The notes beneath the pieces were generated by a model. That model saw only the letters and a program-made list of their open reading frames with translations, ran no database searches and had not been told where the DNA came from. A DNA stretch of 64,000 bases from an uncultured Peptostreptococcaceae bacterium (GTDB taxonomy: Bacteria; Bacillota; Clostridia; Peptostreptococcales; BM714), in the NCBI GenBank assembly GCA_964484935.1, contig CAZAFW010000005.1, forward strand, positions 291-64,290, in the 5' to 3' direction. Shown in pieces: positions 19,243 through 57,785 of this stretch. A program made the translations under genes and the position numbers. Each line of letters starts with the position of its first letter. Within the stretch, counting starts at the first letter, position 1.

Positions 19243-19255
19243 GACAATACACCTC

Positions 19256-20239: not shown

Positions 20240-20251
20240 GTCACCAGCTCC

Positions 20252-21586
20252 TTAAACCAAGGGGTTTGGGATTCCCTTGGATTCCATTTCACCGATAAAG
20301 CTCGGCATTATATTCATGAATTCAAAATGTCCTTTGACTTTCCCCTCCGGGGTCATTCCCTGCTGTATGAACCTAAAAATGTCCTGCATTATTACGATGT
20401 CGCCCTCCATCCCCTGAACCTCTGATATGTGGGTGATTTTTCTGCTTCCGTCTTTCATTCTGGATTGGTGGATCACAAGATGCAGAGCCGAGCCTATCTG
20501 CTCCCTTATTGCGCGGACGGGAAGGTCCATGCCGGCCATCAAGACCATTGTCTCGAGTCTGGAAAGCATATCCCTGGGAGAATTGGCATGCCCCGTGGTT
20601 ATAGATCCGTCATGCCCGGTATTCATTGCCTGCAGCATGTCGAGCGCCTCTCCGGACCTGACTTCCCCTACTACTATCCTGTCGGGCCGCATCCTCAGGC
20701 TGTTCTTTACAAGGTCCCGTATGGACACGGATCCGCTACCCTCGATATTTGCCGGTCGCGTTTCAAGCCTAACTACGTTGACCTGGTCCATCCTCAGCTC
20801 AGCCGCGTCCTCTATGGTCACTATCCTTTCCTCATTGGGAATGAAGGATGAAATTACATTGAGTGTCGTTGTTTTACCGCTGCCTGTTCCTCCCGAGACA
20901 ATTATGTTCAGTCTTGCATGCACGCACGCCTTTATGAATTCCGCCATTTTGGGGGTCAGTGTTCCGAAAGTAACCAGATCCTTTATCTGAAAAGGCTCCT
21001 CGGAAAATTTTCTTATTGTTATTGACGACCCGTCGATTGCAAGCGGCGGAATTATGGCATTAACCCGTGATCCGTTGGGAAGCCTGGCGTCCACCATGGG
21101 AGAGCTTTCATCAATCCTCCGACCCAGGGGGGCAACGATTTTTTCTATTATGTGGTTGACATGGGCATTGTTCTTGAATTCCTTGTCTGTCAGGATGAGC
21201 TTGCCTTTCTTTTCGACAAAAATCCGGTCATATCTGTTGACCATTATTTCGGTCACATCCCCATCTCTCAAATAGGTGGTTATGGGTCCGAATCCCATTA
21301 TTTCATCGACCAGCTCCTGGAATATGTCAAAAAAAATCTTTTGGTTTATTTCCAGGCCCTCCTCCTCGAGAATCTTTTGCAGAAGTTTTTCTATTTCTTC
21401 CTCTAGCTGCTCCTGTTCCTCTTCCATTGTCTCGAAATTGAGATTGTATTCCTCAACTATCCTGGCTTGCACTTTTTCTATCAGCCGGGCGTATTCAAGC
21501 TTTTCAACGCTTTTTTGGCCGGATGCCGTTTTTTTTGCATCTCCAACGGACTTTTGGTTTTTCCCCAGTCTTTCCTTAAGAGTCAC
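20252..21586 (-). CDS. cpaF: Tad pilus secretion ATPase CpaF/TadA
   Basis: Walker A GGTGSGKTTTLN. VirB11/CpaF-like motifs IVTIEDAAEL, RPDRIVVGEVRSGEA and NTGHDGSITTGHANS. Confidence 0.9.
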   Translation of the reverse strand: MTLKERLGKNQKSVGDAKKTASGQKSVEKLEYARLIEKVQARIVEEYNLNFETMEEEQEQLEEEIEKLLQKILEEEGLEINQKIFFDIFQELVDEIMGFGPITTYLRDGDVTEIMVNRYDRIFVEKKGKLILTDKEFKNNAHVNHIIEKIVAPLGRRIDESSPMVDARLPNGSRVNAIIPPLAIDGSSITIRKFSEEPFQIKDLVTFGTLTPKMAEFIKACVHARLNIIVSGGTGSGKTTTLNVISSFIPNEERIVTIEDAAELRMDQVNVVRLETRPANIEGSGSVSIRDLVKNSLRMRPDRIVVGEVRSGEALDMLQAMNTGHDGSITTGHANSPRDMLSRLETMVLMAGMDLPVRAIREQIGSALHLVIHQSRMKDGSRKITHISEVQGMEGDIVIMQDIFRFIQQGMTPEGKVKGHFEFMNIMPSFIGEMESKGIPNPLV

Positions 21587-21597
21587 GCCTACGCCCC

Positions 21598-22749
21598 CTA
21601 TCTTTTCAATATGCCCTTGCTTATCCTGCCGAAAGCCTTGTTTGTTTTACTAGGTCCCTTAGCGTTTACATGGGGTAGGCCCTTGTTTACCGCTTTTATA
21701 AGGGATTTCTTCGCTTCAGGAATTTTATAGTCAATCTTTCTTTCGAAAATACGTTCCAGGTCGGCGTATCCGATTCCAAGCTTAGGATTTGCCATATTGA
21801 CAAGTATCTTGATTTTTTCGTCGGGATATTCAAGCGATTTCATAATCTCTATGCCTATCTTCACATTCTTTACAGAAACTATGTCCATTGCCGACACCAT
21901 GAATATTTCATCCGAGAAATCAAGTGCGGCAAGGGTGGCGTCGCTGAAGCTGCTTGCCATGTCTATGACGATATAATCAAATGTCTGCCTCAGGAAAGAA
22001 AGAATCTCCCTTATGGAATCCCCTCCCATATACTCTGCATATTCGGGGCTTGGGGGCGAAGCCAAAACCATCAGGTTTGACATGTATTCGGTCATCAAAC
22101 CATTTATTGTCGAAGTGTCTATGCTGGCGGTCTCCTCCATTATGTCTGCAATGGTCATTTCAGGCTCAATGTTTGCCATCAATGCCACATCTCCGAATTG
22201 AAGGTCCAAGTCCACCAGGGCTATCCTTTTCCTGCTCTTTTTTGCCATATCCACTGCAAGATTGAGGGCTATGGTTGTCTTGCCCACTCCGCCCTTTGTG
22301 CTGAAAATACCTATTATTCGACCGTCCTTTTTATCGTCCCTCTCGTCACTTGCCTTGGGAATTTCAAATTTGACGCTTTTTTTGTATGTCAGCCGTATTG
22401 TGCTTATTAGCCTGTTGATGTCAAGAGGCAGGGTTATATAGTCCTTTGCGCCGCTTACCATGGCTTTCCTTACCTGTTCGGCTCCGATCTCCCTTGCCAT
22501 AATTATCACAGACGTGTTCCTGCATGTTTCGGTGATTTTTTCGCACGCCTCGTATCCATCCATTTGCTGCATTTCGGAATATATCAGCACTATGTCCGGC
22601 ATAAGCCTCTCTGATAATTCCACAGCGGCAGGCCCTGTATCCGCTTCTCCAACCACTTCAATGACTTTTTCAGTCATAAGATACCGCTTTATGAGCTCGC
22701 GGGTGTCCCTCCTGTTTTCTGCTATCAAAACACTGATTTTTTTACCCAT
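21598..22749 (-). CDS. cpaE: CpaE/TadZ-like pilus localisation ATPase with N-terminal atypical receiver domain
   Basis: The ParA/MinD deviant Walker A is STKGGVGKTTIALNLA. The N-terminal 120 aa has a CheY-like fold, but the acceptor position reads DIVLIYSEMQQMDG (no Asp) and the acidic pair reads AEN. Confidence 0.8.
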   Translation of the reverse strand: MGKKISVLIAENRRDTRELIKRYLMTEKVIEVVGEADTGPAAVELSERLMPDIVLIYSEMQQMDGYEACEKITETCRNTSVIIMAREIGAEQVRKAMVSGAKDYITLPLDINRLISTIRLTYKKSVKFEIPKASDERDDKKDGRIIGIFSTKGGVGKTTIALNLAVDMAKKSRKRIALVDLDLQFGDVALMANIEPEMTIADIMEETASIDTSTINGLMTEYMSNLMVLASPPSPEYAEYMGGDSIREILSFLRQTFDYIVIDMASSFSDATLAALDFSDEIFMVSAMDIVSVKNVKIGIEIMKSLEYPDEKIKILVNMANPKLGIGYADLERIFERKIDYKIPEAKKSLIKAVNKGLPHVNAKGPSKTNKAFGRISKGILKR

Positions 22750-26314: not shown

Positions 26315-27916
26315 CTATTTCATTGCTATAAGCTTTACTTTTTTCCCTCTTTCCGATTCTACTTTTTCATTTTTTTTGTCGTTTTTTATTTCTTCATTCC
26401 TGTTTTCATCAGGCTCTGCGTCTTTTACCTTTCCACCGGAGCTATTTTCCTTGCTTGCTTGATTCTTCGGCAAACTTTCAATGTCCGCATTTGATGATGG
26501 ACTGTTTTTTTCAGTCTTGGCGACTTTTTCTTTTGCCTTTTTCTCCAGTCCGCCCGACCCATCACCATCGGCGGCTTTTAATGAATTTTCTTTTTTAAAC
26601 CCGATTTTGTTTCCGCCACTCGAATCTGTTTGGGTCTTTTCCCCACTGGCAATATTCGACGGACCGACAAAATCATCAACCTTGGCAACTTTTTTATTCG
26701 ATTGTTTTTCGGATTTGCCCGTCGCATCGTCTTTAACAGCTTTGCCTGTTTCTTCGTTGTCAATCTTGATTTTGTTTCCGCCGCTTGACGCAATTTCAAC
26801 CTTCTTTTCATTTTGTTTCTTCGCAAGACCGGCAAATGCAACTTCTGCTTGCTCTTTTTTATCTTTAACCGACAAAACATCTTCAAATCCGTCCGCAAGA
26901 GTCATGTCTGCAATTTCTTCGTTTCCGCCCAGCGCGGTTTTGTCATTCTTTTTCTCCGATGTTTTGCCATTTTCAGACTTTCGATCTTTTGCCGCATCGG
27001 CTTTCATAGACACTTTTTCTTTTTTATGGCCAGAAAGACCCGGGATATCAACATTTCCAAGCATTTCTTCGCTCTGCGCTTTTTCAGGCGTCTTTGCCGT
27101 ATGATTGGACTGTTGCGATATTTCTCTTCGCCCGTCTTTTGCAAGACTTTTGAAAACACGCACTTTTTCTTCATCTATCAAACTGTTTTCAATTATTTCT
27201 GAAGCCTTCATGCCGTTTATTTCCTCTAGGCTGAATGGCGCGACCTCTCCGCAAATTTCATACACCTTGTATTTGCCCAGGCTGGTCTCCATAGTTTTGC
27301 TTTCTTCGTAGTCTTCCCTATCGACTTCAAGAACAAAAACCTCTATTTGCTTTTGGGCTATCATGGGCTCTTCAAAAATTTTTCCGGCTATTTGTTCGGC
27401 ATAACCGGCCTTGCCGGATTTCAAATCCGCCGCCGAAACGATAACCTTTGAATCCGCTTTCAAATAATGGGTTTTTTCCGCCTCTTCAAGTGTCCTGTTT
27501 ATGGCTTTCTCAATGCTTAGTCCCTCCAAACCGCAGTCAGCTATGTCCCGTCCGTCTTCATTCATCGCTTCCGCCCGAATGACAAAATTATCCTTGTCCA
27601 GGTAATATTGAATGCTTGGATTAATATCCATGCTGACCACCGCATACACATTTTGAGACGGCAATTTCTCAAATCCAAAGGCCATCGCGATTGCAAAAAT
27701 TACCATTGCCGCAGAAAACAAACCTCTGTAGACTTTCTTGCGCCCTGCCTGTTTTCCCTCATAAATGTCTTCCCGGGTATATATGATTCTGTCTCCCTCC
27801 GAAAGAGAACCTTTCTTTACAACCTTTTCATATACTCCCTCATCGCTAAGTACAATTCCGTAATTTTTTTTGACTTCGATTACGATCCCCTTATTTATCA
27901 ACAAGCTCCCCTCCAT
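26315..27916 (-). CDS. rsgI: Anti-sigma-I factor RsgI-like protein with long Lys/Glu/Ser/Gly-rich extracytoplasmic tail
   Basis: RsgI_N-like N-terminus KGIVIEVKKNYGIVLSDEGVYEKV and a single TM (LFSAAMVIFAIAMAFGF). The C-terminal ~280 aa are low-complexity with repeated SSGGNK / SGG motifs. The ATG at 27914-27916 overlaps the sigI 3' end by 26 nt. Confidence 0.7.
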   Translation of the reverse strand: MEGSLLINKGIVIEVKKNYGIVLSDEGVYEKVVKKGSLSEGDRIIYTREDIYEGKQAGRKKVYRGLFSAAMVIFAIAMAFGFEKLPSQNVYAVVSMDINPSIQYYLDKDNFVIRAEAMNEDGRDIADCGLEGLSIEKAINRTLEEAEKTHYLKADSKVIVSAADLKSGKAGYAEQIAGKIFEEPMIAQKQIEVFVLEVDREDYEESKTMETSLGKYKVYEICGEVAPFSLEEINGMKASEIIENSLIDEEKVRVFKSLAKDGRREISQQSNHTAKTPEKAQSEEMLGNVDIPGLSGHKKEKVSMKADAAKDRKSENGKTSEKKNDKTALGGNEEIADMTLADGFEDVLSVKDKKEQAEVAFAGLAKKQNEKKVEIASSGGNKIKIDNEETGKAVKDDATGKSEKQSNKKVAKVDDFVGPSNIASGEKTQTDSSGGNKIGFKKENSLKAADGDGSGGLEKKAKEKVAKTEKNSPSSNADIESLPKNQASKENSSGGKVKDAEPDENRNEEIKNDKKNEKVESERGKKVKLIAMK

Positions 27917-28628
27917 CCTCGTCAAATTCAGGCAATTGATTTCTAATATCAGGCCAGTCATTAATTAATATAAGAACTGCCGCCGTTATGAATCCATTGC
28001 TTCTGCGAATCGACTTTTGGCTTATTTGCATCTCTTTTCTTATATGGCTGAACGGCAATTTTTTTTTCGCTAAAAATTCGTTTTTCAAAATTGGGTTCGA
28101 ACTGACCATTTTTGCGATACGAAAAGCGTTTAACCTCGTATCATTGTGCTTGGGCGACTCATCAAGCAATTGTTCCAATGTTATGTCGAATTCACTAAGT
28201 TTCATTTTAAATTCTTTCAATTGCTCTTTTACGTCTATTTCGGAAGTAAAATCCCCGGAACTGAATGCCCCTTCCAAGACATTCCCTTTATCGGTTTCAA
28301 AGGAGGATAGAGGCAAAGCCCTGTTGCGGCTTTCCTTTTTTTTGTAGTCTTTTACTCTGCTCGAAATAACCAAATCGGCATATGAAATGAAATTTCCTTT
28401 GTCGGGTTCGTATCTTTGCAAAGCCTCGTCAAATGCTTTTAGCCCTATTGAAAATTCGTCGCTTTCTGTCGAATCCAGATAAGCGTCAATACATTTTGAT
28501 ACGCTTTTTACAATAAATGGGATATAATCGCGAATAAAGGCCTCTTTTTCCTGTTTGTTTCCATTTTTTATCGATTTTATTCTTCTTTCAATAACTTGAG
28601 CGCCCTTGCTTGAAGTTCTTTTAACCAC
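27891..28628 (-). CDS. sigI: RNA polymerase sigma factor SigI family
   Basis: KEAFIRDYIPFIVKSVSK, GLKAFDEALQRYEPDKGNFISYADLVISSRVKDYKKKE and the C-terminal HTH region match the SigI-type sigma-70 subfamily. The gene is directly coupled to an rsgI-like gene. Confidence 0.75.
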   Translation of the reverse strand: MVKRTSSKGAQVIERRIKSIKNGNKQEKEAFIRDYIPFIVKSVSKCIDAYLDSTESDEFSIGLKAFDEALQRYEPDKGNFISYADLVISSRVKDYKKKESRNRALPLSSFETDKGNVLEGAFSSGDFTSEIDVKEQLKEFKMKLSEFDITLEQLLDESPKHNDTRLNAFRIAKMVSSNPILKNEFLAKKKLPFSHIRKEMQISQKSIRRSNGFITAAVLILINDWPDIRNQLPEFDEDGGELVDK

Positions 28629-37440: not shown

Positions 37441-38401
37441 CGGGGTCAGGCATCATTGTATCACTTAAGTGTGATACAATGATGTTATCAAGTACTGATG
37501 GAGGCGACATATGGCTCGAAAACCACGCATACACTTTGAAGGAGCATTATATCATGTGATTGTTAGGGGAAATAATCGTGAATTTATCTTTAAGGAGGAC
37601 AAGTGGAAACTGGAATACCTGGAAACAATCAAACGCTATAAATCCAAATACAAATTTAAACTTTACGCCTATGTAATGATGGACAACCATGCCCATCTAT
37701 TGATTGAGGTCAACCATGTCCCTTTGTCAAAAGTGATGCAGTGCATTCAGCAAGTATTTACACAAACATACAACCGAAAAGCCAGCCGGACAGGCCACGT
37801 TTTCGGACAACGCTATAAAGCTATACTTTGTGATAAAGATCAGTACTTGCTAATGCTGATACGCTACATTCACCAGAATCCAACAAGGGCGGGAATCGTA
37901 AATGGATTGAATTATAATTGGAGCAGTTATAACGAATACCTTGATAAAACAAAAAATAATTTGTGCGATGTCGAATTTCCATTGGGTTTGTTTAAAAATC
38001 GATTGGATATATTTGTTGAATTTATGAACGAAGAAGAGACTGAAATCAAGAAGATTCCTATTCGAAAATTCTCGGAAAACATTGATGAATATAAAGAAAT
38101 GAATAAGGAGAACTGTAGATCAACAGATTCGGATTTAGCGACAATAATAGAAAAGGTTTGTGAAGCGCTGGATATTGAAGTGGATCAGATATCCGCAAAA
38201 ACGAGGAAACGCAATATTGCCAATGCAAGACAACTTATTGCATTCCTTGCTTCTAAAAATCCAGAAATTACGCAAAAAGAGATAGCAGGGCGGTTTAATG
38301 TCAATCAAAATAGCGTATCGATGATGCTGTCCAAAGAGGATATAAGGTCGAAATATGGAAAAGAAATGTTCGAATTAATGATTTAGTGATGCCTGACCCC
38401 G
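37441..38401 (+). mobile_element. RAYT/IS200-like Y1-transposase unit flanked by 15-bp perfect inverted repeats
   Basis: CGGGGTCAGGCATCA (37441-37455) is the exact reverse complement of TGATGCCTGACCCCG (38387-38401). A 14-bp perfect palindrome also lies inside the left end: CATCATTGTATCAC (37451-37464) pairs with GTGATACAATGATG (37471-37484). Confidence 0.7.
37511..38386 (+). CDS. REP-associated tyrosine transposase-like protein (Y1_Tnp domain plus DnaA-C-like HTH)
   Basis: HUH motif MMDNHAHLLI and catalytic Tyr region IRYIHQNPTRAG. The C-terminus KTRKRNIANARQLIAFLASKN...EIAGRFNVNQNSVS resembles the DnaA C-terminal HTH. Confidence 0.8.
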   Translation: MARKPRIHFEGALYHVIVRGNNREFIFKEDKWKLEYLETIKRYKSKYKFKLYAYVMMDNHAHLLIEVNHVPLSKVMQCIQQVFTQTYNRKASRTGHVFGQRYKAILCDKDQYLLMLIRYIHQNPTRAGIVNGLNYNWSSYNEYLDKTKNNLCDVEFPLGLFKNRLDIFVEFMNEEETEIKKIPIRKFSENIDEYKEMNKENCRSTDSDLATIIEKVCEALDIEVDQISAKTRKRNIANARQLIAFLASKNPEITQKEIAGRFNVNQNSVSMMLSKEDIRSKYGKEMFELMI

Positions 38402-47341: not shown

Positions 47342-47892
47342 TTTTTAAACCTGCTTTCATATATTTGTCTGTACAACCGCTTTCCATTTTCCCTTGTGCT
47401 TTCCATAAGAACTATGCTTTCGACCCTCTGCATCCAATTGCCGCTTTTTATGTTTTCCAAAATATCTCCGCAATCAACCGTTCGCCCAATTGTGACATGG
47501 GGATTGAAATCTTTTCCATCCGTTTTGAATCCTGCCTCCTCAAGGCGCACTGCAAGCTTTTTATCAAGCTCAATCAGCTTTGTCCGCCCCAGAGACACTC
47601 CCAGCCACACTATAGCCCTTTGGGGCTTTCCGAAAAGCCCCAAACCTTCTATTTTTATTTCGAAGGATTCTGTATCAGCCGCCGCATCGTCCATGGCTCT
47701 ATGAATTTTCGACAAGCTTTCTTTATTTGTCTCTCCTATGAATTCAAGAGTTATGTGATAATTCGCGGGATCCGCATATCTTCCCCCGCCACTCTTTTTT
47801 TCAACCTCAGAAGAAACTCCCGCGATTTCTCTTTTTATGGCCCCGTCCAATTTAACCGCCGCAAAAACTCTCACTCTCAATCGTCCTCCCAC
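47338..47892 (-). CDS. thpR: RNA 2',3'-cyclic phosphodiesterase (2H family, ThpR/LigT)
   Basis: Two HxT/S motifs: YHITLEFIG and PHVTIGRT. Confidence 0.8.
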   Translation of the reverse strand: MGGRLRVRVFAAVKLDGAIKREIAGVSSEVEKKSGGGRYADPANYHITLEFIGETNKESLSKIHRAMDDAAADTESFEIKIEGLGLFGKPQRAIVWLGVSLGRTKLIELDKKLAVRLEEAGFKTDGKDFNPHVTIGRTVDCGDILENIKSGNWMQRVESIVLMESTRENGKRLYRQIYESRFKK

Positions 47893-48119
47893 TCGGAAAG
47901 GACCTGCTCAAATGCTGCAATTTGTGCGGATATGGCAATATCCATCGACTCGCCTCTGCCCGCCCAGTCATTTCCTTGTCTTATATATAGATCCTGAAGC
48001 TGTTTTCTCAAATCTTCCTTGCTGTAGCTTTCGTCGGATTCCTTCAGGTTTTTAAAATTGTAATATACATTATTGAAAATATTTTCAAACTTTTCCTCTT
48101 TCCACTCTTGTAAAAACAT
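47877..48119 (-). CDS. Hypothetical acidic protein (80 aa)
   Basis: ORF overlapping the thpR start by 16 nt. No recognisable motif. Confidence 0.45.
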   Translation of the reverse strand: MFLQEWKEEKFENIFNNVYYNFKNLKESDESYSKEDLRKQLQDLYIRQGNDWAGRGESMDIAISAQIAAFEQVLSEWEDD

Positions 48120-48166: not shown

Positions 48167-48943
48167 TTACAATATCGATGCCAAAAATTCCTTTGCATAT
48201 TCGCTTTCCGGGTTTTCGATTATTTTATCACTTGACCCTGCTTCCACAATTCTTCCATCGCAGACAATCGCCAGTCGGTCGCAAATTTTTTTAGCAACAT
48301 TTAAATCCCTGCTTAAAAAAAGATAACTCGTCCCTTGCTCCTTTCGAATCCTTTTAAGCGTATGGACAAGCTGCCCCCTTGAAGATGCGTTCACCTTGCC
48401 CGAAGGCTCGTCAAGCACAATCAAATCCGGGCGCCACAAGGCCGCCAATGCAATGCCTGTCCTCTTGACATCGAGCATGTCAAGCTCGCCTATGCGGCAA
48501 TCCGCCGCCGCAAGGTCAAGCCCCGCCAAATTCATGGCCTCAAAGGCTTCCATCGGCTTTGGTATGTTTTGTATTTTATTGCAATTTGCAATGGATTCCG
48601 CAATTATTTCGCCTATCGTAAGCCTTTTGTCGACATGGTCCTCAATTTCTTGGAAAACAATCTGAACCCTTCCATGGAATTTTTTTCTTTTTTTACCCCT
48701 AAACATCGCAATGTCTTCGCCACGAAATTTTATTTGCCCGGAATCCGGAAGAGAAAGTCCCGCGACAATTTCTCCAACAGCAGTTTTGCCGCTGCCCCTC
48801 CCCCCTATAAGGCCCAGCGCTTCATTATCTAAAATTTCAAAGCTCACATCATCCACAGCCTTGAGGGATTTTACGGGGTTTGAAACTCCGCCCCCGGCAA
48901 TATACTCCTTTTTCAAACTGATTGCAGCTATAAGCTTTTCCAT
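48167..48943 (-). CDS. OppF-like ABC nucleotide-binding protein with degenerate signature and H-loop
   Basis: Walker A GGRGSGKT, Q-loop VFQE and Walker B LIVLDEP are present. Where LSGGQRQR is expected the sequence reads LDMLDVKR, and the H-loop reads LSRD instead of xxHD. The start ATG overlaps the upstream stop (TGATG). Confidence 0.75.
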   Translation of the reverse strand: MEKLIAAISLKKEYIAGGGVSNPVKSLKAVDDVSFEILDNEALGLIGGRGSGKTAVGEIVAGLSLPDSGQIKFRGEDIAMFRGKKRKKFHGRVQIVFQEIEDHVDKRLTIGEIIAESIANCNKIQNIPKPMEAFEAMNLAGLDLAAADCRIGELDMLDVKRTGIALAALWRPDLIVLDEPSGKVNASSRGQLVHTLKRIRKEQGTSYLFLSRDLNVAKKICDRLAIVCDGRIVEAGSSDKIIENPESEYAKEFLASIL

Positions 48944-49911
48944 CACTCCGCCCCTCCCACCGGATTGAAGCATCTAACCTTGTGAATACCCTCGCCGGCA
49001 AGTTCGGGCATTTCTTCCACGCAATAGAATTTGCCTCGGCCGCAGCGTTCGGCAAACGGACATCTTCTCAGCGTTTCATCGAGCCTGTTTTCCGATTCAT
49101 TAATCGAATACACTTCTTCGCTTTTTCCCGCAAAGGATTCAAGGCTTTTTACGAGTCCTACAGAATAAGGATGTCCCGCCTTGTCTATAAGCTGGTTCAC
49201 CGTGCCTTCCTCCACAACCAAACCCCCATACATTATGATGACCCTGTCGCACAGAAGTCTTGCCGCATCAAAGTCGCTTGTCTCGATAATTATTGATATC
49301 CTGTAGTCTATGCTGATTTTCTTAAGCAACACCAGAATCTCTTTCTTCTTCAAACCGTCGAAGGCCGATTCCGGATCTTCAACAATCAGTATTTTAGGCT
49401 TTGAAATGACCGCCATTGCAAGGAGAATTCTATACGCAAGCTCTTCTCCAAGCCTGAACGCATAGGTCTTCCTTATGCCTTTCAAGTTCTCGATCCCCAA
49501 ATTTTCCAACACTTCGTCGATTGATTCCCTGCTACATTCGGAGCCGTAGTGTTTTTCCAAAATACCCAATTGCCTGCCTATTGTCATATGCGGATTAAGT
49601 GCCTTAAGCGCATGACTTGAAACATGGGCAATTTCACGGCCGCGTATTTTCTTCAAGTCTCTTTCGTCCATTGTGAGGATATCCTTTTCGAGATAGAGAA
49701 CTTCCCCGGAAAGAAAATTTTGCTTACTGTCCAAAAGACCCAGCAGGACCTTGGGCAAAATTTCCTTTCCGCTGCCGCTTTCTCCGACTATGCCCAATAT
49801 TCCTCCCCGTTCGAGCTCAAAATCCATATTTCTCACAAGCTTAATCGTTTTTCCATTGGTTTTCCTTGAAACCGACAAATTACAAACCTCAAGTATCGTT
49901 TTATGTCTCAT
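48943..49911 (-). CDS. OppD-like ABC nucleotide-binding protein with all catalytic motifs degenerate
   Basis: Collinear with OppD, including the C-terminal oligopeptide-transporter extension (HPYSVGLV...CPFAERC). Walker A is GESGSGKE. The Q-loop reads VSSHA, the signature RLGEELAYR, Walker B ILIVEDP, and the H-loop ETSD. Confidence 0.75.
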   Translation of the reverse strand: MRHKTILEVCNLSVSRKTNGKTIKLVRNMDFELERGGILGIVGESGSGKEILPKVLLGLLDSKQNFLSGEVLYLEKDILTMDERDLKKIRGREIAHVSSHALKALNPHMTIGRQLGILEKHYGSECSRESIDEVLENLGIENLKGIRKTYAFRLGEELAYRILLAMAVISKPKILIVEDPESAFDGLKKKEILVLLKKISIDYRISIIIETSDFDAARLLCDRVIIMYGGLVVEEGTVNQLIDKAGHPYSVGLVKSLESFAGKSEEVYSINESENRLDETLRRCPFAERCGRGKFYCVEEMPELAGEGIHKVRCFNPVGGAE

Positions 49912-52010
49912 GGAGCCCTCCTAACGTCGAGCTTGAAGATTGTTTCGACAATCGCATCACCGAAATCGTCAATATTCATCGAACTTTCCGGGAAAGGAAC
50001 AAAACCCATCGCCAGAGTCTCTATTCCATGTTCTTGGGCAAGCATTGAATTGCCGGAATTGTTGCTTCCTGTGTATGCAAACGGATAACCGTTTCGTGAT
50101 AAAACGGATCCGGCCGTTTCCGCCGCGTAAGCCGCATAGCCCAGACCGCCTGCTCGCGTTTCAACACCATAGACAACATGTCCCGAAACATCCTCGTACA
50201 CATTTGTCAAATCGATATAGATGCATATGTCTTCTTTTTCAATCGGCAGGTTCTTCGAGAAGAAAGCCTTCCCCTCTCCGCCGGAGCCTCCGGCGATGTC
50301 GAAAAATACAAGCGCCACATTCGCCGCCAGTTTATCCTGCCTTACTGCCAATTGTTTTGCGAGTTCCAGTCCGAAATCTATCTTTCCACTTTTTACAGGC
50401 TCGTACTGCCATCCGTAAGACAAGCCTATAAGTATTGTCTTGTCTTTTTTCTTTTCAGCGTCTTTCAGTTTCGCTAATACATTGATTCCTTCATTCCCGT
50501 TGCTTTTGGCTATCTGCCTGTAAATGAGTTCTCCATTCCCGTCAACCAGGAATGCAGACATTTTTTCACTAATGGTAAGTACCGGCCATTTCGAAATAAT
50601 TCGGCCCTGTGAAGCAAAACGGCTTTCAATCCCATTACCAGAAACAAGCACTCCTTTTGCCTCTGATTCCTCGAAAATCTTTTCAGAAAACTCCATGATG
50701 TCTTCTTGGCTGTATTCCCTCTTTCCAAGCATTATCCACTTGCCTGAAAATTCGCCGTATTTGTCTTCCATTGAGTAGTAGTCCATTCTTCTTCCATCGT
50801 AGATACTTGCCGATACATCGAACATTCCGAATGAATCGGCAAAATAGTCCTTTCCGGCTTCATATACAGTCTCCCCGATGCCTGAGTCGAAAACAAGCTC
50901 GTCGTAAATCGGTTCTATTACCGCATCTCTTTCATAATTTTGCATAAAAGAATCGGAAATCGGCAAGAATCCGATTTTTTCAAGCTCCAAAGCGATTAGT
51001 TCGGCGCCTTCTCCGGCTTCGCTGCTTCCGGGAATCATCTCTCCCGTTCTTTCGAAAACAAGGTTCCTGCGGATTTCTGCAATGCTGAAATCCGCAACAA
51101 CGATGCTATTATTGATGAACAATATTACCATTACTCCCGCCGCAAATAAAAGTATGGCTGCCGCAAACGAATTGCGTCCCGCCCTTTTATCCATGGCCAA
51201 TCGCATACGCCTTTTTTCAAGGCCATCCGAAAGCAGATTTGATGCGAAGATTCCAATGAAGAATGCCAAAGCCGGGTAAAGCGCAAGATAGGGCTTACTA
51301 TGCCAGTAAGGCATGAATCGGGCAATGACGCCATAGTTCTTGGTCTCGATTAGAGAAACCGGACCATAGAAAGTCCCAAGCCCTTCAAAAAGTCCATAAA
51401 ATATTAACAGCTCGGCCATAATCGTCAAGACTTTTGCGCTCTGGTCAAAAAACATTGATGGGAGGCGCTCCTTCAAAATTCGGGAAATGTTGCCAAAAGC
51501 TATGGAAACACGGCCTCTGCCTGCCGCCTCCCCGCCTTTTGAAAGCCTTCCGCCGCTGAGTTTTTTCATTTCCCTGGAAATATCCCCTGCAGGTCCGCTA
51601 ATGCCGGCAATACTTAGCACCACAACAAAAATGGCTGGAAATTGTCCTCTTAGGTATTCATTCGCAGAGGCTCCTACCAAAATTGCCAGGATGGCTATAT
51701 TTGCAGGAACAATCCTGAAGACTGATTCAAACAGACTGATCAAACCGCCGAATGTCACGCTTCCCAATCCGGACAAAATTCCTATTGGGACTGCCGCAAT
51801 AAGCCGAATTGCCGAAACCAGTATAGCCCCCGCAGCAACAACTCGAACTCCATTTATTATAAAACTTAAATATTCGCTTTCCGTCAACTCTAAAATGCTT
51901 TTAGTCGAATGCATTTTTTCAAAAGCTGCAATCTCGGGAAAAAACGCAAACATGAATATTGCCAACAGAAGCGTCCCGCCCAAAAGAATGTGCCTGTTTT
52001 CACTTTTCAT
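49908..52010 (-). CDS. OppC-like ABC permease fused to a C-terminal ~400-aa extracytoplasmic PA/M28 peptidase-like domain (no metal ligands)
   Basis: The N-terminal ~290 aa are polytopic with an EAA-like loop (GEAAGRGRVSIAFGNISRILKERLP). An extra TM (FAAAILLFAAGVMVILFI) follows. The ectodomain then parallels M28 blocks of the neighbouring protein (ANVALVFFDIAGGSGGEGKAFF) but lacks His/Asp/Glu ligands. Confidence 0.7.
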   Translation of the reverse strand: MKSENRHILLGGTLLLAIFMFAFFPEIAAFEKMHSTKSILELTESEYLSFIINGVRVVAAGAILVSAIRLIAAVPIGILSGLGSVTFGGLISLFESVFRIVPANIAILAILVGASANEYLRGQFPAIFVVVLSIAGISGPAGDISREMKKLSGGRLSKGGEAAGRGRVSIAFGNISRILKERLPSMFFDQSAKVLTIMAELLIFYGLFEGLGTFYGPVSLIETKNYGVIARFMPYWHSKPYLALYPALAFFIGIFASNLLSDGLEKRRMRLAMDKRAGRNSFAAAILLFAAGVMVILFINNSIVVADFSIAEIRRNLVFERTGEMIPGSSEAGEGAELIALELEKIGFLPISDSFMQNYERDAVIEPIYDELVFDSGIGETVYEAGKDYFADSFGMFDVSASIYDGRRMDYYSMEDKYGEFSGKWIMLGKREYSQEDIMEFSEKIFEESEAKGVLVSGNGIESRFASQGRIISKWPVLTISEKMSAFLVDGNGELIYRQIAKSNGNEGINVLAKLKDAEKKKDKTILIGLSYGWQYEPVKSGKIDFGLELAKQLAVRQDKLAANVALVFFDIAGGSGGEGKAFFSKNLPIEKEDICIYIDLTNVYEDVSGHVVYGVETRAGGLGYAAYAAETAGSVLSRNGYPFAYTGSNNSGNSMLAQEHGIETLAMGFVPFPESSMNIDDFGDAIVETIFKLDVRRAP

Positions 52011-52011
52011 T

Positions 52012-54378
52012 TCAACACCCTCCCTTCGGGGTCAAAAGAAAATGAAGCGCTGTCGAAAAAAGCGCAGAAAAAGCACAGAATGCTCCAGTTAAAAGCATTG
52101 CTCCGAATACCGTTTCCGGACTTTCAATTTCCACAAGAAACCGGTTCATAAGGCCCGGCAATCCGAAAATGTATTCAACGGCTATCAGGTTTGACAGAGT
52201 CATAACCACCATTTGTGGGATGAATTTGGCGGCTTCCGACAAAATACCCTTCAGCATATGTCTTGAGGCTATTTCGAAGGTACCGAATCCCCTTGCCCTT
52301 GCCGCAAGTACATAGTCCTTTCCAACTTCCTCTTTTACGAATCTTTCCACCACCAATGACAAGCAAGCGAATGGAATAACGGCCATTGAAAAAACAGGCA
52401 AGGCAAGCGTTTTAAATGAATAGTCAAAACCTCCACCCGAATATGCGACTGTTCCAAACAACAGAATCGAAACATATAAAAACGCCAATGCCCAGAAAGG
52501 CTGCGGTATCGACAATAAAGAGAGTGAAAACATTCCACGTCCTTCAGATCCCTTTGCTGCGGCGGCTCCCCTCCATGTCCCGGCCGTGATTCCCGCTATA
52601 AATGCGAGTGCCATTGACGATGCGGCAAGCCCCGTGCTCAAAGCCAATCCTCCACCAATAAGATCCGCAATCTTGTCGGGTTCGAAGTTTCTCATAAATG
52701 AATACATTCCTTCAAATGCCAAATTAAGTGAAGCAAGGTCCAAAAAACGAATATTCGACGCTAAAACAATGACAGCAATTGCCGCCGAAACCGAAATAAG
52801 CAAACCTGTAAACCGGCCCAGAAGCATTCGGGGCAATGAATGATATATTTTGCGGATTGTGCTTCCACCTATTGATGCGCCCGGATGTCTGACATGCAAC
52901 ACGCCGGCGGCATAAGAAAGATATAAAAGCGCAAAAAGCACAGCGGAGAAAATCGCCGTTTCAGTATCTATGTGTCCCAAGTATGGCGTTTTATAGCAGT
53001 GGCCTATTGCAAAATCGGCGCACCCTTCCATATTCTCTTCAAAATTGGCGCCATCCCATTGTCCCCCATTGTCCTTGGGAGTTCCCCCAATGGTTTCAAA
53101 TCCTGTTCCGCTTACGCTTCCGATTGTAACTGCTGGTATTTCCATTTCGTATAGACTCTTTTGGCTCGCGCCCATTTCAGACCCTGCGGTCAGCGCTTTC
53201 AAGCCTGCATTTTCATAGTTTTGAAAAATGATATCAGCAAGCCTCTCCGAAGAAGAATCTCCGTTTACATATGATATCCATGTCTTTTCCGAATTCTTCC
53301 ACCCCAGTTTGTCCAAAAGCACAACTTCCGTTTTATCAAAGGGGAACAGTGGGTTTTCAAAGTACTCGACGATTCCCGAAGTTCCTGATTTTTCGCCGTC
53401 AAAAAACAGAAATACTATATTTGTTTCGGGAACAGAATCCATTGCTCCGAGTTTCCCCGAAAGCTCCAAAAGGCCGGATATTCCTCCTGCATTGTCTATG
53501 GCGCAAGGCACATGGCCGTTTTCCCCGTATGAACCGTATCCATCGTATCCTGCCGCAAAAATAAGGCATTCGTCGCTTTGCTCTGCGGGTATGTATCCAA
53601 TTATGTTCTCGCCTCTAAGGTACGGGAATCCAATTTCCACATGGATTTCGACCCCGTCGGCTATTCCGTCAAATCCGTTTTCCGCTCGCTTTTGCAGCTT
53701 GTCATAAACACCGCCGCTTATGCGGGCCATAAAAACTGTCTGGGAATGTTTTCCGGAAGCATCAACACTCTTTCTTTCTATCTCAAATCCATGGGTTTGA
53801 TTTTCATCATAAAAGAGAATGCCTTCCCCTCCGCTCCTCAATACATGGTTTTGGGCTTCTTCGGAAATCTCGCCCGACTTGACCGCCGCCAGGCGTCCTA
53901 CAAGCATGTACCCTGGTATGTTTTCAACAGGGCCTTCCGCCAGAAGAACATCCCCAAAATAGTCGATGCCTCCCCCCAAGCCTTTGGCCGCAGGGTTGTA
54001 GTCTTTGAAAATATCGAATGTCTCGGAAACCCCGTCACCAATATCCAAGATATTGAATTCAGCCGACTTGTAAAGCGCTGAAGTGGCGTCGAACCCGATT
54101 CCGTAGCCTTCTTCATAGGGGCTTTCTATTCCCTGTTCCCTCAAGATGCTTTTTATGTATTCAGAGGCCTTTTCCCCTCCCGGAGTCCCGAATTGCCTGC
54201 CTTCGTACTCGTACCCGGCCAACTCTCTTATTCTCTCCGACGCCGCTATCCTATCCGGGACGTTTCCAACAATTTCGGTGACTTCCCCTTTGCAGCTAAA
54301 AAAGACTGCCGCAAAAATAGCGAATGGCAACAGCAAGATAAATATTGTCCAAAAAATGTTTTTTTTCAAAATTCGCAC
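52012..54378 (-). CDS. OppB-like ABC permease with a ~440-aa PA/M28 peptidase-like domain inserted after TM1
   Basis: TM1 is IFWTIFILLLPFAIFAAVFF. M28-like blocks follow: IFAAGYDGYG (consensus HxDS), CAIDNAGGISGLLEL, and VFLFFDGEKSGTSG (consensus EE). The C-terminal permease core contains KDYVLAARARGFGTFEIASRHMLKG (EAA loop). Start is GTG 54378 or TTG 54369. Confidence 0.7.
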   Translation of the reverse strand: MRILKKNIFWTIFILLLPFAIFAAVFFSCKGEVTEIVGNVPDRIAASERIRELAGYEYEGRQFGTPGGEKASEYIKSILREQGIESPYEEGYGIGFDATSALYKSAEFNILDIGDGVSETFDIFKDYNPAAKGLGGGIDYFGDVLLAEGPVENIPGYMLVGRLAAVKSGEISEEAQNHVLRSGGEGILFYDENQTHGFEIERKSVDASGKHSQTVFMARISGGVYDKLQKRAENGFDGIADGVEIHVEIGFPYLRGENIIGYIPAEQSDECLIFAAGYDGYGSYGENGHVPCAIDNAGGISGLLELSGKLGAMDSVPETNIVFLFFDGEKSGTSGIVEYFENPLFPFDKTEVVLLDKLGWKNSEKTWISYVNGDSSSERLADIIFQNYENAGLKALTAGSEMGASQKSLYEMEIPAVTIGSVSGTGFETIGGTPKDNGGQWDGANFEENMEGCADFAIGHCYKTPYLGHIDTETAIFSAVLFALLYLSYAAGVLHVRHPGASIGGSTIRKIYHSLPRMLLGRFTGLLISVSAAIAVIVLASNIRFLDLASLNLAFEGMYSFMRNFEPDKIADLIGGGLALSTGLAASSMALAFIAGITAGTWRGAAAAKGSEGRGMFSLSLLSIPQPFWALAFLYVSILLFGTVAYSGGGFDYSFKTLALPVFSMAVIPFACLSLVVERFVKEEVGKDYVLAARARGFGTFEIASRHMLKGILSEAAKFIPQMVVMTLSNLIAVEYIFGLPGLMNRFLVEIESPETVFGAMLLTGAFCAFSALFSTALHFLLTPKGGC

Positions 54379-54404
54379 CGCCCATGTAAAAAATATATTT
54401 CAAT

Positions 54405-54445
54405 CTCAAAAAAACACCCTTCCCTTTTAGAGGTGTTTTTTTGAG
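54405..54445 (-). terminator. Bidirectional rho-independent terminator
   Basis: Perfect 14-bp stem: CTCAAAAAAACACC (54405-54418) pairs with GGTGTTTTTTTGAG (54432-54445). It lies between the FAD oxidoreductase stop and the ABC cluster start. Confidence 0.8.
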
Positions 54446-54480
54446 ATTCATCGGGCTGCCTAATTACGGCCAGCCAGTTT

Positions 54481-56036: not shown

Positions 56037-57785
56037 ATGAAGGAATTTTCAGAAATCGTAGGCATACTTGAAAATGAAAATGTAAGGACCCTTTTTCAAC
56101 CGATTGTAAATTTGACCAATGGACAAGTAATCGGTTACGAAGCGCTTAGCCGAGGGCCGAAAGGTTCCATTCTGGAAGGTCCATTGGATATGCTTAGAGT
56201 AGCTGAAAAACACAATCTGCTGTGGGAAATCGAACTCCTCTTTAGAAGAAAATCCATAGAGCGGTCCATTAAAATTGACAAAGACAAGCTTTTGTTTATA
56301 AATGTCGATCCCAACATCATAAAGGATAAAAAATTCGAAAAGGGATTCACTAAGGATTTTTTGGCCGAATATGGAATCTCGCCCAAAACGGTAATATTCG
56401 AAATCACCGAACGGACTGCCATCGCAGACTACATGAATTTTCGGGCAGTCCTTGACAATTACAAGGAACAGGGTTATAAAATAGCCATCGACGATGTGGG
56501 TTCGGGCTATTCCGGTATGAAAACCATAACAGAAACCCAACCCAATTATATCAAGATCGACATGGACTTGATACGAAACATCGACAGCGACAGCCTGAAA
56601 AGAGCCATTATGCAATCCTTTGTAAAACTCGGCGAATCGACCGGAATCCGCCTCATCGCGGAAGGCATAGAAACAAAACAGGAGCTTAAAACTCTCATTC
56701 AAATGGGTGTTTACGCCGGCCAGGGCTATCTTTTGCAGCGTCCTGCCGGCACTTTTCTCGATATTCCCGACACAATCCGAAATCTTATACGCAAATACTA
56801 CATGCACAGGGAAAACCATTCCTTGACCAGCAGCACCAAAACCGATGTTGGACACCTTTCCCACAAAAGTCTCAGTTTTCCATCAGATACTCCTGTTTCA
56901 GAAATATGCGACTATTTCAAGTCAAGCGAAAGCGAAGGCGTATGCATAACCCACGGTGAAAAACCTATAGGCTTGTTGATGAGACACAGTCTCAACGAAA
57001 AATTAGCCACGCAGTACGGTGTGGCCCTATATTCAAACCGTCCCGTCCATTTGATTATGGACGCCCGACCTCTGATAGTAGACTACCACGATTCAGTCAC
57101 AATGGTTTCAGAAATTGCAATGGAGCGTACAAACGGCAAGTTGTACAATCTCATAATCGTGACCCGGGGACTTTCCTATCATGGTCTCATATCGATAAGA
57201 GACCTCCTTAATTACACCACTGTGATAGAAAAGAATTACGCACGCGAACTCAATCCCTTGACCTTCCTTCCCGGAAATGCAATCATAAACAGAGTCCTTA
57301 AAAACGGAATCGACTTTAAAAGGAAATGTGCAATCCTTTATCTTGATCTCGACAATTTCAAGGCCTACAATGACAACTACGGATTCGAAAATGGAGACAA
57401 AATACTGAAAATGACAGCCGACCTCATAAAGAACAAGCTTATTGAGCATTTCTCCGATGAGCAGTTCCTGGGGCATATAGGAGGAGACGATTTTGTCTGT
57501 GTCGTTGACGGACCTGCCGGCAAGATAAAAGCCTTTTGCAGCTCCTTGACAAAAGCCTTCGATTTGGAAGCAATCAATTATTTCAATGAAAAGGACACCA
57601 TGCAGGGATTTTTTGAAAACGCTTGCTCTCAAAACAATAGATTGCCCCTTACAGCATTATCAATAGCGGGCTTCTACGGAGACTTGTCCCGCTTCTCTTC
57701 TGCCGAAGATTTGGGCCATCACATGGGTCTTCTCAAGAAGGAAGTCAAAAATATCGCCGGCAGCTGCAGCAAGCTGGATTTTTAG
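56037..57785 (+). CDS. EAL phosphodiesterase - CBS pair - GGDEF-like (GGDDF) multidomain c-di-GMP protein
   Basis: EAL motifs: GYEALSRGP, EITERTAI, IAIDDVGSGYSG, IKIDMDL, AEGIETKQE, GQGYLLQRP. A central CBS-like pair follows. The C-terminal cyclase fold contains LDLDNFKAYNDNYGFENGDKIL and HIGGDDFVCVV. Confidence 0.85.
   Translation: MKEFSEIVGILENENVRTLFQPIVNLTNGQVIGYEALSRGPKGSILEGPLDMLRVAEKHNLLWEIELLFRRKSIERSIKIDKDKLLFINVDPNIIKDKKFEKGFTKDFLAEYGISPKTVIFEITERTAIADYMNFRAVLDNYKEQGYKIAIDDVGSGYSGMKTITETQPNYIKIDMDLIRNIDSDSLKRAIMQSFVKLGESTGIRLIAEGIETKQELKTLIQMGVYAGQGYLLQRPAGTFLDIPDTIRNLIRKYYMHRENHSLTSSTKTDVGHLSHKSLSFPSDTPVSEICDYFKSSESEGVCITHGEKPIGLLMRHSLNEKLATQYGVALYSNRPVHLIMDARPLIVDYHDSVTMVSEIAMERTNGKLYNLIIVTRGLSYHGLISIRDLLNYTTVIEKNYARELNPLTFLPGNAIINRVLKNGIDFKRKCAILYLDLDNFKAYNDNYGFENGDKILKMTADLIKNKLIEHFSDEQFLGHIGGDDFVCVVDGPAGKIKAFCSSLTKAFDLEAINYFNEKDTMQGFFENACSQNNRLPLTALSIAGFYGDLSRFSSAEDLGHHMGLLKKEVKNIAGSCSKLDF

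What the first reader, a model, noticed from the sequence alone, without database searches (positions are those of the whole stretch)
48167..54378. Opp-like ABC cluster: both permeases fused to pseudo-M28/PA peptidase ectodomains, both ATPases degenerate, no binding protein
Four tightly coupled minus-strand genes have 1-4 nt overlaps or gaps. They are collinear with OppB, OppC, OppD and OppF.

1. No family-5 solute-binding protein gene is present in or next to the cluster.
2. The OppB-like protein carries a ~440-aa domain after TM1, with a PA domain and M28-like blocks. The OppC-like protein carries a ~400-aa homologous domain at its C-terminus after an extra TM.
3. The M28 metal and catalytic positions are replaced. 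AAGYDGYG stands where HxDS is expected, and GEKSG where EE is expected. The second copy keeps none of them.
4. The OppD-like ATPase has lost the Walker A Ser/Thr (GKE), the Q-loop Gln, the LSGGQ signature (RLGEE), the Walker B order (VEDP) and the H-loop His (TSD).
5. The OppF-like ATPase keeps Walker A, Walker B and the Q-loop but has LDMLD for LSGGQ and Arg for the H-loop His.

All four ORFs are intact, so this does not look like decay. My inference is a repurposed machine. It could be a binding-protein-independent importer whose ectodomains capture peptide-like ligands, or an ATP-binding but non-hydrolysing signalling or mechanotransmission device in the FtsEX style. I know of no described system with this architecture.
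Basis: partly seen in the sequence, partly recalled or inferred. Interest (0 to 1): 0.85.

Follow-up and report, generated by a model that had tools for sequence, protein, structure and literature searches.

The report
ATPase-dead, peptidase-capped Opp-like ABC transporter
This four-gene cluster is a derived member, with inactivated ATPases, of an apparently undescribed family of peptide-type ABC transporters that have no binding-protein gene nearby and instead carry a peptidase-like outer domain on each membrane subunit; it appears to keep the outer domains while the transport parts evolve under relaxed constraint.

Summary
Four coupled minus-strand genes encode an OppB-like permease with an M28/PA-fold ectodomain, an OppC-like permease with a homologous C-terminal ectodomain, and OppD- and OppF-like ATPases. 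Both ATPases have lost the LSGGQ signature and the H-loop His. D has also lost the Walker A Ser/Thr, the Q-loop Gln and the Walker B order.

The context is new. An exhaustive profile search and a genome scan show that the B-C-D-F module is conserved at 20-26% identity in about 20 further genome loci, mostly Peptostreptococcales (Wukongibacter, Fusibacter and Acidaminobacter genomes; single B homologues also in Geosporobacter and Gudongella). No family-5 binding-protein gene was found next to any tested locus. In all distant loci the ATPases are fully canonical, and some B ectodomains keep a complete M28 active site. A syntenic orthologous locus (L040) also has canonical ATPases, so the degeneration is derived and confined to the window's clade.

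In that clade all four genes remain intact and under purifying selection (dN/dS 0.13-0.33). They evolve faster, and constraint has shifted from the membrane domains to the ectodomains.

Best reading: the family is a binding-protein-independent importer capped by a peptidase/pseudopeptidase pair. The window's version has a disabled engine and is kept for an ectodomain-based, non-transport role. Function is untested. I found no literature on this architecture.

The parts
52012..54378 (-). B: OppB-like permease fused to an M28/PA-fold ectodomain (788 aa from GTG 54378; the real start is probably TTG 54369, giving 785 aa)
   Evidence: Pfam Peptidase_M28 at 258-437 and BPD_transp_1 at 621-782. NCBIfam Opp3B/OppB/NikB hits on 559-785. 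100% identical to P0001.
52954..54300 (-). B ectodomain (aa 27-475): degenerate M28 aminopeptidase fold with an inserted PA-like domain, flanked by extra TM helices at aa 8-26 and aa 476-494
   Evidence: AF2 ectodomain pLDDT is about 70-90. Foldseek top hits are 2ek8, BSAP 6hc6 (TM 0.75), PaAP, TfR and GCPII. Metal ligands H, E and H are replaced by G, K and G/T. Hydropathy and positive-inside analysis.
52015..52953 (-). B membrane part (aa 476-788): the second extra TM helix (aa 476-494), then the six-helix OppB core with its EAA coupling loop (about aa 684-715)
   Evidence: The 'YIRxLLxxGxG' loop after TM 523-548 corresponds to the OppB TM1-TM2 loop (consensus; correspondence by my comparison with E. 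coli OppB recalled from memory).
51111..52010 (-). C membrane part (aa 1-300): OppC-like six-helix core with an EAA loop (GGEAAGRG, about aa 159-166), plus a seventh extra TM (aa 281-299)
   Evidence: Faint NikC/Opp2C/GsiD C-terminal hits. Family orthologues hit BPD_transp_1. Hydropathy. EAA alignment.
49911..51110 (-). C ectodomain (aa 301-700): ancient pseudo-M28/PA domain homologous to the B ectodomain, with no catalytic or metal residues in any family member
   Evidence: hhalign of family-wide profiles gives 99.7%, E 7e-26, 334 columns. Motif census. No Pfam hit reaches threshold.
48943..49911 (-). D: OppD-like ATPase with all catalytic motifs degenerate; the oligo_HPY C-terminal domain and its four Cys are retained
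48167..48943 (-). F: OppF/NikE-like ATPase (258 aa from Met11). Walker A, Q-loop and Walker B are kept; the signature (LDMLD), D-loop and H-loop (Arg) are lost
47877..48119 (-). S: conserved 80-aa acidic protein directly downstream. Possibly a fifth gene of the unit; membership is uncertain
   Evidence: Present after F in L001, L002, L004, L008, L011, L012 and L040, and overlaps the F stop in L040. dN/dS 0.07-0.11. Only 9 clusters in 5.8 billion proteins.
54400..54450 (-). Terminator-like hairpin with a U-run between the upstream FAD-dependent gene and B; it marks the 5' boundary of the unit
   Evidence: Fold energy -28.5 kcal/mol, z = -5.9, 0 of 200 shuffles as stable. Sequence.

Best explanation
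Family (shown). The window encodes a derived member, with degenerate ATPase motifs, of an apparently undescribed family of Opp/Dpp-type (type I, BPD_transp_1) ABC systems, found mainly in Peptostreptococcales. Each permease carries one M28/PA-fold ectodomain. B carries it N-terminally, between two extra TM helices. C carries it C-terminally, after one extra TM. No family-5 binding-protein gene accompanies the operon.

Family (inferred). The two homologous ectodomains form a heterodimeric cap over the translocation pore and take over the role of OppA. The B domain is active in some lineages and degenerate in many. The C domain is a pseudo-peptidase in every member. Together they would capture peptides or their N-termini, and trim them where the active site is intact. 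Canonical OppD/F ATPases would drive import.

Window clade (shown). Both ATP sites were destroyed after the split from the syntenic L040 lineage. All four proteins then evolved faster, and constraint moved from the membrane domains to the ectodomains. Purifying selection persists.

Window clade (inferred). The complex no longer performs ATP-driven transport. It is kept as a membrane-anchored receptor or scaffold whose function lies in the pseudo-peptidase ectodomain pair. F probably still binds nucleotide, because its Walker A, Walker B and Q-loop are conserved, so it may gate or report a conformational state without hydrolysis.
For: Architecture and motifs.

M28/PA fold of B. Homology of the C ectodomain.

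Family breadth.
- About 45 clusters (50% identity) of roughly 800 aa match full length at E 1e-40 to 1e-85.
- Thirty genome loci were recovered, about 20 of them with the B-C-D-F order, including the cultured Wukongibacter baidiensis.
- Single B-type proteins were also found in Geosporobacter subterraneus and Gudongella sp.; their neighbouring genes were not examined.

ATPase state. D and F motifs are canonical in all 19 distant loci and degenerate only in the window clade. The syntenic orthologue L040 has canonical ATPases.

M28 site. It is intact in P0052, P0054, P0055, P0065, P0071, L014 copy 2, L029 and L034, and degenerate elsewhere. The C ectodomain has no catalytic residues anywhere.

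Binding protein. No SBP_bac_5 in 20 large neighbours of 10 distant loci, in the called genes of close loci, or in the 32 window ORFs scanned.

Selection. dN/dS is 0.13-0.33.

Rate acceleration. Identity to 7 canonical outgroups, window versus L040: C 0.22 vs 0.35, D 0.33 vs 0.44, F 0.33 vs 0.51.

Constraint shift.
- B: the TMD is 9-18 points less conserved than the ectodomain in 6 of 6 clade pairs. In canonical pairs TMD minus ectodomain averages +5 points, ranging from about -10 to +35 among comparably diverged pairs.
- C: TMD minus ectodomain is about 0 in the clade, versus +12 to +37 in 91 canonical pairs.
Against: - No experiment exists for any member. Transport direction, substrate and ectodomain interaction are all inferred.
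- No multimer model could be made. The single-chain AF2 model of C failed (pLDDT 35), and the TMD of B is of low confidence.
- Orphan binding proteins encoded elsewhere cannot be excluded.
- dN/dS of 0.13-0.33 is moderate. The neighbouring FAD gene shows 0.03-0.05, so part of the signal could be slow relaxation.
- One clade member (L002) has a canonical-looking Walker B (IIDEP) in D.
- Residual or unconventional ATPase activity is not excluded by sequence alone.
- The constraint-shift comparison uses few, phylogenetically non-independent clade pairs.
Confidence: 0.55

Rival explanations
1. The window complex is still a working importer. It would be energised by an unconventional mechanism: ATP binding or slow hydrolysis at the F Walker A/B site, borrowed ATPases from another Opp system, or facilitated diffusion through the permease pair. 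The ectodomains would act as the ligand receptor.
For: - F keeps Walker A (GSGKT/S), the Q-loop Gln and Walker B (LDEP) in every clade member.
- EAA coupling loops persist in B and C.
- All four genes are under purifying selection.
Against: - Both LSGGQ signatures are replaced by acidic sequences, both H-loop His are lost, and the F D-loop is lost, so neither composite ATP site is complete.
- Constraint on both TMDs is markedly relaxed relative to canonical relatives.
- C, D and F evolve faster than in the syntenic canonical orthologue.
Confidence: 0.2
2. The cluster is a decaying remnant, an operon on its way to pseudogenisation after the ATPases were inactivated, and it has no remaining function.
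For: - Evolution of B, C, D and F is accelerated compared with L040.
- dN/dS is 3-10 times higher than in the flanking FAD gene.
- Window C no longer matches BPD_transp_1, while distant orthologues do.
Against: - All four ORFs are intact with preserved translational coupling in at least 7 lineages that differ by up to about 50% in protein sequence, with dS saturated.
- dN/dS is 0.13-0.33, not about 1.
- The replacement motifs are themselves conserved: GKE, LDxxDVK, LSRD/ISKD.
- The ectodomains show the lowest dN/dS (0.17-0.18) in the window versus L008 comparison, though not in L001 versus L002.
Confidence: 0.07
3. The ABC parts are only a membrane anchor. The real function would be a surface-displayed enzyme or binding protein unrelated to transport, in the whole family as well, for example cell-wall peptide processing.
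For: - Some family members keep a complete M28 active site.
- Public annotation calls these proteins 'M28 family peptidase'.
- In the window clade the ectodomains are the best conserved parts.
Against: - In the family at large the permease cores and the canonical ATPases are the most conserved parts. That pattern is not expected for a mere anchor.
- The strict four-gene B-C-D-F organisation is maintained at 20-25% identity.
Confidence: 0.15

Closest known systems
Opp/Dpp/Nik-type ABC importers (PepT family; e.g. M. tuberculosis OppABCD 8j5q, E. coli DppBCDF 8z1v, OppBCDF 8z21)
   Same: - Gene order is B-C-D-F.
- The permeases are of the BPD_transp_1 type with EAA loops.
- D is OppD-like, with the oligo_HPY C-terminal domain and four Cys.
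- The best sequence matches of D and F are these proteins.
   Different: - There is no family-5 binding-protein gene in cis.
- Each permease carries an ectodomain of about 400-450 aa and extra TM helices.
- In the window clade both ATP sites are degenerate. All scores fall far below the NCBIfam cut-offs.
PA-domain M28 aminopeptidases (B. subtilis BSAP 6hc6, Aneurinibacillus AM-1 2ek8, P. aeruginosa PaAP 8ac7)
   Same: - The fold of the B ectodomain matches (Foldseek E about 1e-17 to 1e-19, TM up to 0.75).
- The order of the M28 motif blocks is the same.
- Some family members keep all ligands.
   Different: - Those are soluble, secreted enzymes. Here the domain is covalently built into an ABC permease.
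- The window copy lacks 3 of 5 metal ligands.
- The C copy lacks all of them.
Pseudo-M28 receptor ectodomains of eukaryotes (transferrin receptor 1; nicastrin and nicalin from my own knowledge)
   Same: An M28/PA-fold ectodomain that has lost catalysis serves as a ligand or substrate receptor on a membrane complex. TfR1 is among the structural matches.
   Different: The lineage and the partner machinery are unrelated. The resemblance is functional analogy only and was not tested here.
Type I ABC importers with substrate-binding domains fused to the permease (OpuA, GlnPQ)
   Same: The extracytoplasmic receptor domain is covalently fused to the TMD, which removes the need for a separate binding protein (general knowledge; OpuA paper listed).
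   Different: Those fused domains have the periplasmic-binding-protein fold and belong to other ABC subfamilies. Here the fused domain has a peptidase fold and sits on both permeases of an Opp-type system.
ABC proteins with a degenerate nucleotide site (CFTR, TM287/288, BmrCD, SUR)
   Same: Non-canonical Walker, signature or H-loop residues are conserved under selection (reviews listed).
   Different: Those proteins have one degenerate and one competent site, and they are exporters or channels. Here both composite sites of an importer-type complex are incomplete.

Membership tests
Opp/Dpp-type (PepT family) ABC importer | Two BPD_transp_1 permeases with EAA coupling loops | tested here: met
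   B matches BPD_transp_1 at E 3.4e-8, above the cut-off. Window C gives only faint NikC hits, but its orthologues hit BPD_transp_1 and the EAA core GEAAG(R/K)G is present.
Opp/Dpp-type (PepT family) ABC importer | OppD/OppF-type ATPases, with the oligo_HPY C-terminal domain | tested here: met
   D carries ABC_tran plus oligo_HPY, and its best hits are OppD/DppD. F is NikE/DppF-like but lacks the C-terminal extension.
Opp/Dpp-type (PepT family) ABC importer | Catalytically competent ATP sites (Walker A, Q-loop, LSGGQ, Walker B Glu, H-loop) | tested here: not met
   Both signatures and both H-loop His are lost, and D has lost all motifs. The feature is met in distant family members and in the syntenic L040.
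Opp/Dpp-type (PepT family) ABC importer | Cognate family-5 solute-binding protein (SBP_bac_5) | tested here: not met
   None in the 32 window ORFs scanned, in close loci, or in 20 large neighbours of 10 distant loci. A gene elsewhere in the genome cannot be excluded.
M28 metallo-aminopeptidase | M28 fold and sequence family | tested here: met
   B: Pfam E 2.8e-14 and structural matches. C: homologous to B by profile-profile comparison, E 7e-26, but no Pfam hit reaches threshold.
M28 metallo-aminopeptidase | Co-catalytic zinc site (His, Asp, Glu, Asp, His) plus a catalytic Glu | tested here: not met
   Window B has G, D, K, D, G/T at the ligand positions; the catalytic Glu is kept. C has none. 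Eight of the 60 family B proteins aligned keep the full set.
PA (protease-associated) domain | PA domain inserted in the peptidase domain | tested here: inconclusive
   Pfam PA is not detected in B. However, the model aligns over about 440 columns with PA-containing M28 enzymes, and PA is annotated in distant sequence hits.
FtsEX / MacB-type (type VII) mechanotransmission ABC systems | FtsX/MacB-type permease with four TM helices and a periplasmic domain between TM1 and TM2 | tested here: not met
   The permeases are BPD_transp_1 / OppB-OppC-like. No FtsX or MacB_PCD hit was found.
SBD-fused type I importers (OpuA/GlnPQ type) | Fused extracytoplasmic domain with the periplasmic-binding-protein fold | tested here: not met
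   The fused domains have the M28/PA fold. The resemblance is in principle only.

The most novel reading that the evidence does not exclude
The family is a new class of binding-protein-independent peptide ABC importers. A heterodimeric aminopeptidase/pseudo-aminopeptidase cap, built into the two permeases, would replace OppA and couple extracellular N-terminal recognition or trimming directly to uptake. The window's clade would be a natural 'dead-engine' derivative: an importer-type ABC complex with both ATP sites abolished that is retained under selection as a non-transporting surface receptor or scaffold.
Probability: 0.4. Interest if true: 0.85.

Novelty: new variant of a known kind. Interest (0 to 1): 0.72.

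Why it matters
Type I ABC importers are defined by their dependence on a binding protein of the periplasmic-binding-protein fold. A conserved family that replaces it with a peptidase-fold domain pair fused to the permeases would extend the known ways of delivering substrate to an ABC importer. It would also suggest direct coupling of extracellular proteolysis to uptake in peptide-fermenting anaerobes.

The family offers a natural experiment. Active and inactive M28 sites, and live and dead ATPase pairs, occur in orthologous and even syntenic loci (window versus L040). The question of what an ABC transporter does once it can no longer hydrolyse ATP therefore becomes directly testable. Cultured hosts are available for canonical members (Wukongibacter baidiensis; probably Geosporobacter subterraneus and Gudongella sp.).

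Public databases currently label these proteins only as 'M28 family peptidase' or as a generic permease.

Tried and rejected
- AF2 of the C protein with its 4-sequence alignment failed (pLDDT 35), so no structural test of the C ectodomain was possible.
- Profile-profile comparison of full-length B versus C with shallow alignments found no ectodomain match. Ectodomain-only shallow profiles gave only E 5e-4 at 30% probability. A PDB profile search with the C ectodomain found nothing, and Pfam gave M28 at E 0.004 in 2 of 4 orthologues. Family-wide alignments settled the question.
A 14-sequence subset worked.
- The promoter and terminator consensus scan was no better than shuffles. Rfam found nothing in 47-57 kb.
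- A conserved functional link with the upstream FAD-dependent gene was considered and rejected. It is separated from B by a strong terminator hairpin and is absent from distant loci, so the association is synteny only.
- A link to the EAL-GGDEF gene on the opposite strand was not pursued. It is absent from L001, L002 and L040.
- Six literature searches found no description of the architecture.

Full report
**What is in the window.**
Four minus-strand ORFs occupy 54378..48167.
- B is 788 aa (54378..52012).
- C is 700 aa (52010..49908).
- D is 322 aa (49911..48943).
- F is 258 aa from Met11 (48943..48167).

The junctions are a 1-nt gap, an ATGA overlap and a TGATG overlap. A strong hairpin with a U-run (-28.5 kcal/mol, z = -5.9) lies between the upstream FAD-dependent gene and B, so B starts the unit. 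A conserved 80-aa acidic ORF, 'S' (48119..47877), follows F. After it come LigT, MatE and pyrimidine-biosynthesis genes.

**Family assignment of the four proteins.**
- Pfam finds Peptidase_M28 and BPD_transp_1 on B, nothing on C, ABC_tran plus oligo_HPY on D, and ABC_tran on F.
- NCBIfam ranks OppB/NikB, NikC/Opp2C, OppD/DppD and NikE/DppF models first. All scores are far below their cut-offs.

**ATPase motifs.**
- D: Walker A is GSGKE. The Q-loop Gln is absent. LGEEL replaces LSGGQ. VEDP replaces the Walker B DEP. Ser replaces the H-loop His.
- D keeps the four C-terminal Cys.
- F: Walker A (GSGKT), the Q-loop Gln and Walker B (LDEP) are kept. LDMLD replaces LSGGQ, the D-loop is changed, and Arg replaces the His.

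An ABC ATP site combines the Walker side of one subunit with the signature of the other. Neither site is therefore complete.

**Topology.**
Hydropathy, positive-inside counts and family alignments give the following picture.
- B has 8 TM helices. An N-terminal TM (aa 8-26) is followed by the ectodomain (27-475), a second extra TM (476-494) and a K/R-rich cytoplasmic loop. The six-helix OppB core with its EAA loop follows.
- The ectodomain is thus an N-terminal TM-ectodomain-TM module. It is not an insertion in the OppB TM1-TM2 loop.
- C has the six-helix core with an EAA loop (GEAAGRG), a K/R-rich loop, a seventh TM (281-299) and the ectodomain (300-700).

**The ectodomains.**
- The AF2 model of B has ectodomain pLDDT of about 70-90. 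It matches PA-domain M28 aminopeptidases (2ek8, BSAP 6hc6 at TM 0.75, PaAP), and then transferrin receptor and GCPII.
- Against family members with intact sites, the window B has Gly for the first His. It keeps the HxD Asp, the bridging Asp and the catalytic Glu. It has Lys for the ligand Glu and has lost the last His.
- The AF2 model of C failed.
- Homology of the C ectodomain was undetectable or weak with shallow profiles. It became decisive once family-wide alignments were available: hhalign gives 99.7%, E 7e-26, over 334 collinear columns.
- No C protein in the family has any M28 catalytic residue.

**How widespread the architecture is.**
- A word-indexed search found only seven full-length relatives at 51-100% identity.
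- An exhaustive profile search of 1.84 billion representatives found about 45 clusters of roughly 800 aa that match B end to end, at E 1e-40 to 1e-85.
- A scan of GTDB species genomes returned 30 loci.
- In about 20 of them, B (about 815 aa), C (about 730-800 aa), D and F follow one another at 20-26% identity to the window.
- Hosts include Wukongibacter baidiensis DY30321 (two tandem copies), Fusibacter, Acidaminobacter and Acidaminobacteraceae. They also include many Peptostreptococcaceae and Clostridia MAGs and two bins labelled Spirochaetales.
- Single B-type homologues were also found in Geosporobacter subterraneus (WP_110941175.1) and Gudongella sp. (WP_422487261.1), annotated only as 'M28 family peptidase' or as a generic Opp permease. 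Their neighbouring genes were not examined.

**No binding protein in cis.**
SBP_bac_5 was absent from all of the following:
- the 32 window ORFs scanned;
- the called genes of close loci;
- 20 large neighbouring ORFs in 10 distant loci, whose contexts are otherwise unrelated to one another.

**The key comparison.**
- In all 19 distant loci D and F carry fully canonical motifs (GESGSGKT/S, Q, LSGGQ, DEP, H). Only the window clade is degenerate.
- L040 is a locus with the same synteny (FAD-dependent gene, B, C, D, F, S, LigT, MatE, pyrB). Its B is 38% identical to the window's.
- L040 also has canonical ATPases.
- The loss is therefore derived. It happened at this locus after the split from the L040 lineage.
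- In B, a complete M28 site survives in 8 of the 60 family proteins aligned, among them one of the two Wukongibacter copies. The rest are degenerate in various ways.

**Is the window cluster decaying?**
- All four ORFs are intact and coupled in at least seven lineages, some only about 50% identical, with dS saturated.
- dN/dS is 0.16-0.22 (window vs L008) and 0.13-0.33 (L001 vs L002).
- The replacement motifs are conserved.
- The clade is nevertheless clearly accelerated. Identity to seven canonical outgroups, window versus L040, is 0.22 vs 0.27 for B, 0.22 vs 0.35 for C, 0.33 vs 0.44 for D and 0.33 vs 0.51 for F.
- Constraint has moved. In B, the TMD is 9-18 points less conserved than the ectodomain in all six clade pairs.
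- In canonical pairs of B, TMD minus ectodomain averages +5 points. It ranges from about -10 to +35 among comparably diverged pairs.
- In C, TMD minus ectodomain is about 0 in the clade, against +12 to +37 in all 91 canonical pairs.

**Interpretation.**
Shown:
- a conserved Opp-type family with no binding-protein gene in cis and an M28/PA ectodomain on each permease;
- a derived clade with both ATP sites incomplete, purifying selection, faster evolution and relaxed membrane-domain constraint.

Inferred:
- In the family, the ectodomain pair replaces OppA as the receptor, and as a trimming enzyme where the site is intact. It feeds an ATP-driven importer.
- In the window clade, ATP-driven transport is lost and the complex is kept for an ectodomain-based receptor or scaffold role. 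F possibly still binds nucleotide.

Rivals are residual unconventional transport, slow decay, and a pure membrane-anchor role for the ABC parts. None is excluded by experiment.

**Literature.**
Six full-text searches found no description of an M28-permease fusion, of an Opp system with fused non-SBP receptor domains, or of an importer with both ATP sites degenerate. The library does not cover all journals.

Noticed in passing
window 47877-48119 (-): An 80-aa acidic protein ('S', QEWKEEKFExIFNNVYYNF...). It is more conserved than the transporter (79% identity to L040, dN/dS 0.07-0.11). It always lies directly after F in the syntenic group and overlaps the F stop in L040. There is no Pfam family, and only 9 clusters exist in 5.8 billion proteins.
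   Followed up: partly
window 54400-54450 (-): A strong A-run/stem/U-run hairpin (-28.5 kcal/mol, z = -5.9) between the FAD-dependent gene and B. It looks like a bidirectional intrinsic terminator, and the simple terminator scan missed it.
   Followed up: yes
L014 3296-12454 (Wukongibacter baidiensis NZ_CP138202): Two copies of the family lie in tandem. The first is a full B-C-D-F module, and a second B gene follows immediately. The second B keeps a complete M28 active site; the first is degenerate. The genes after the second B were not annotated.
   Followed up: partly
window 48943-49911 (-), aa 283-314 of D: The degenerate D ATPase still keeps the four-Cys motif (CPFAERC...C...C) of the OppD C-terminal domain in all clade members. 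To my knowledge this motif binds an Fe-S cluster in M. tuberculosis OppD. That hints at a retained cofactor or regulatory role.
   Followed up: partly
L031 9650-15947 and L015 5224-6199: In these MAG loci B and/or D are split into fragments. This is either real decay or assembly frameshifts. It contrasts with the intact window-clade genes.
   Followed up: no
L018, L020, L033: The module also occurs in bins labelled Spirochaetales. This could be horizontal transfer or mis-binning.
   Followed up: no
window 56037-57785 (+): An EAL-CBS-GGDEF protein is the only plus-strand gene in this stretch. It is present in L004, L005 and L007 but absent from L001, L002 and L040.
   Followed up: partly
window 37511-38386 (+): An ORF combines an IS200-like Y1 transposase domain with a DnaA C-terminal helix-turn-helix domain, on the strand opposite to almost all other genes.
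   Followed up: no
window 18322-22749 (-): A Tad/type II-IV secretion-like cluster: two T2SSF proteins, a T2SSE ATPase, and a response-regulator/ParA-like fusion.
   Followed up: no
window 26315-27961 (-): An RsgI-like anti-sigma factor (RsgI_N plus RsgI_M). It sits in the lowest-GC part of the window (0.39-0.41).
   Followed up: no
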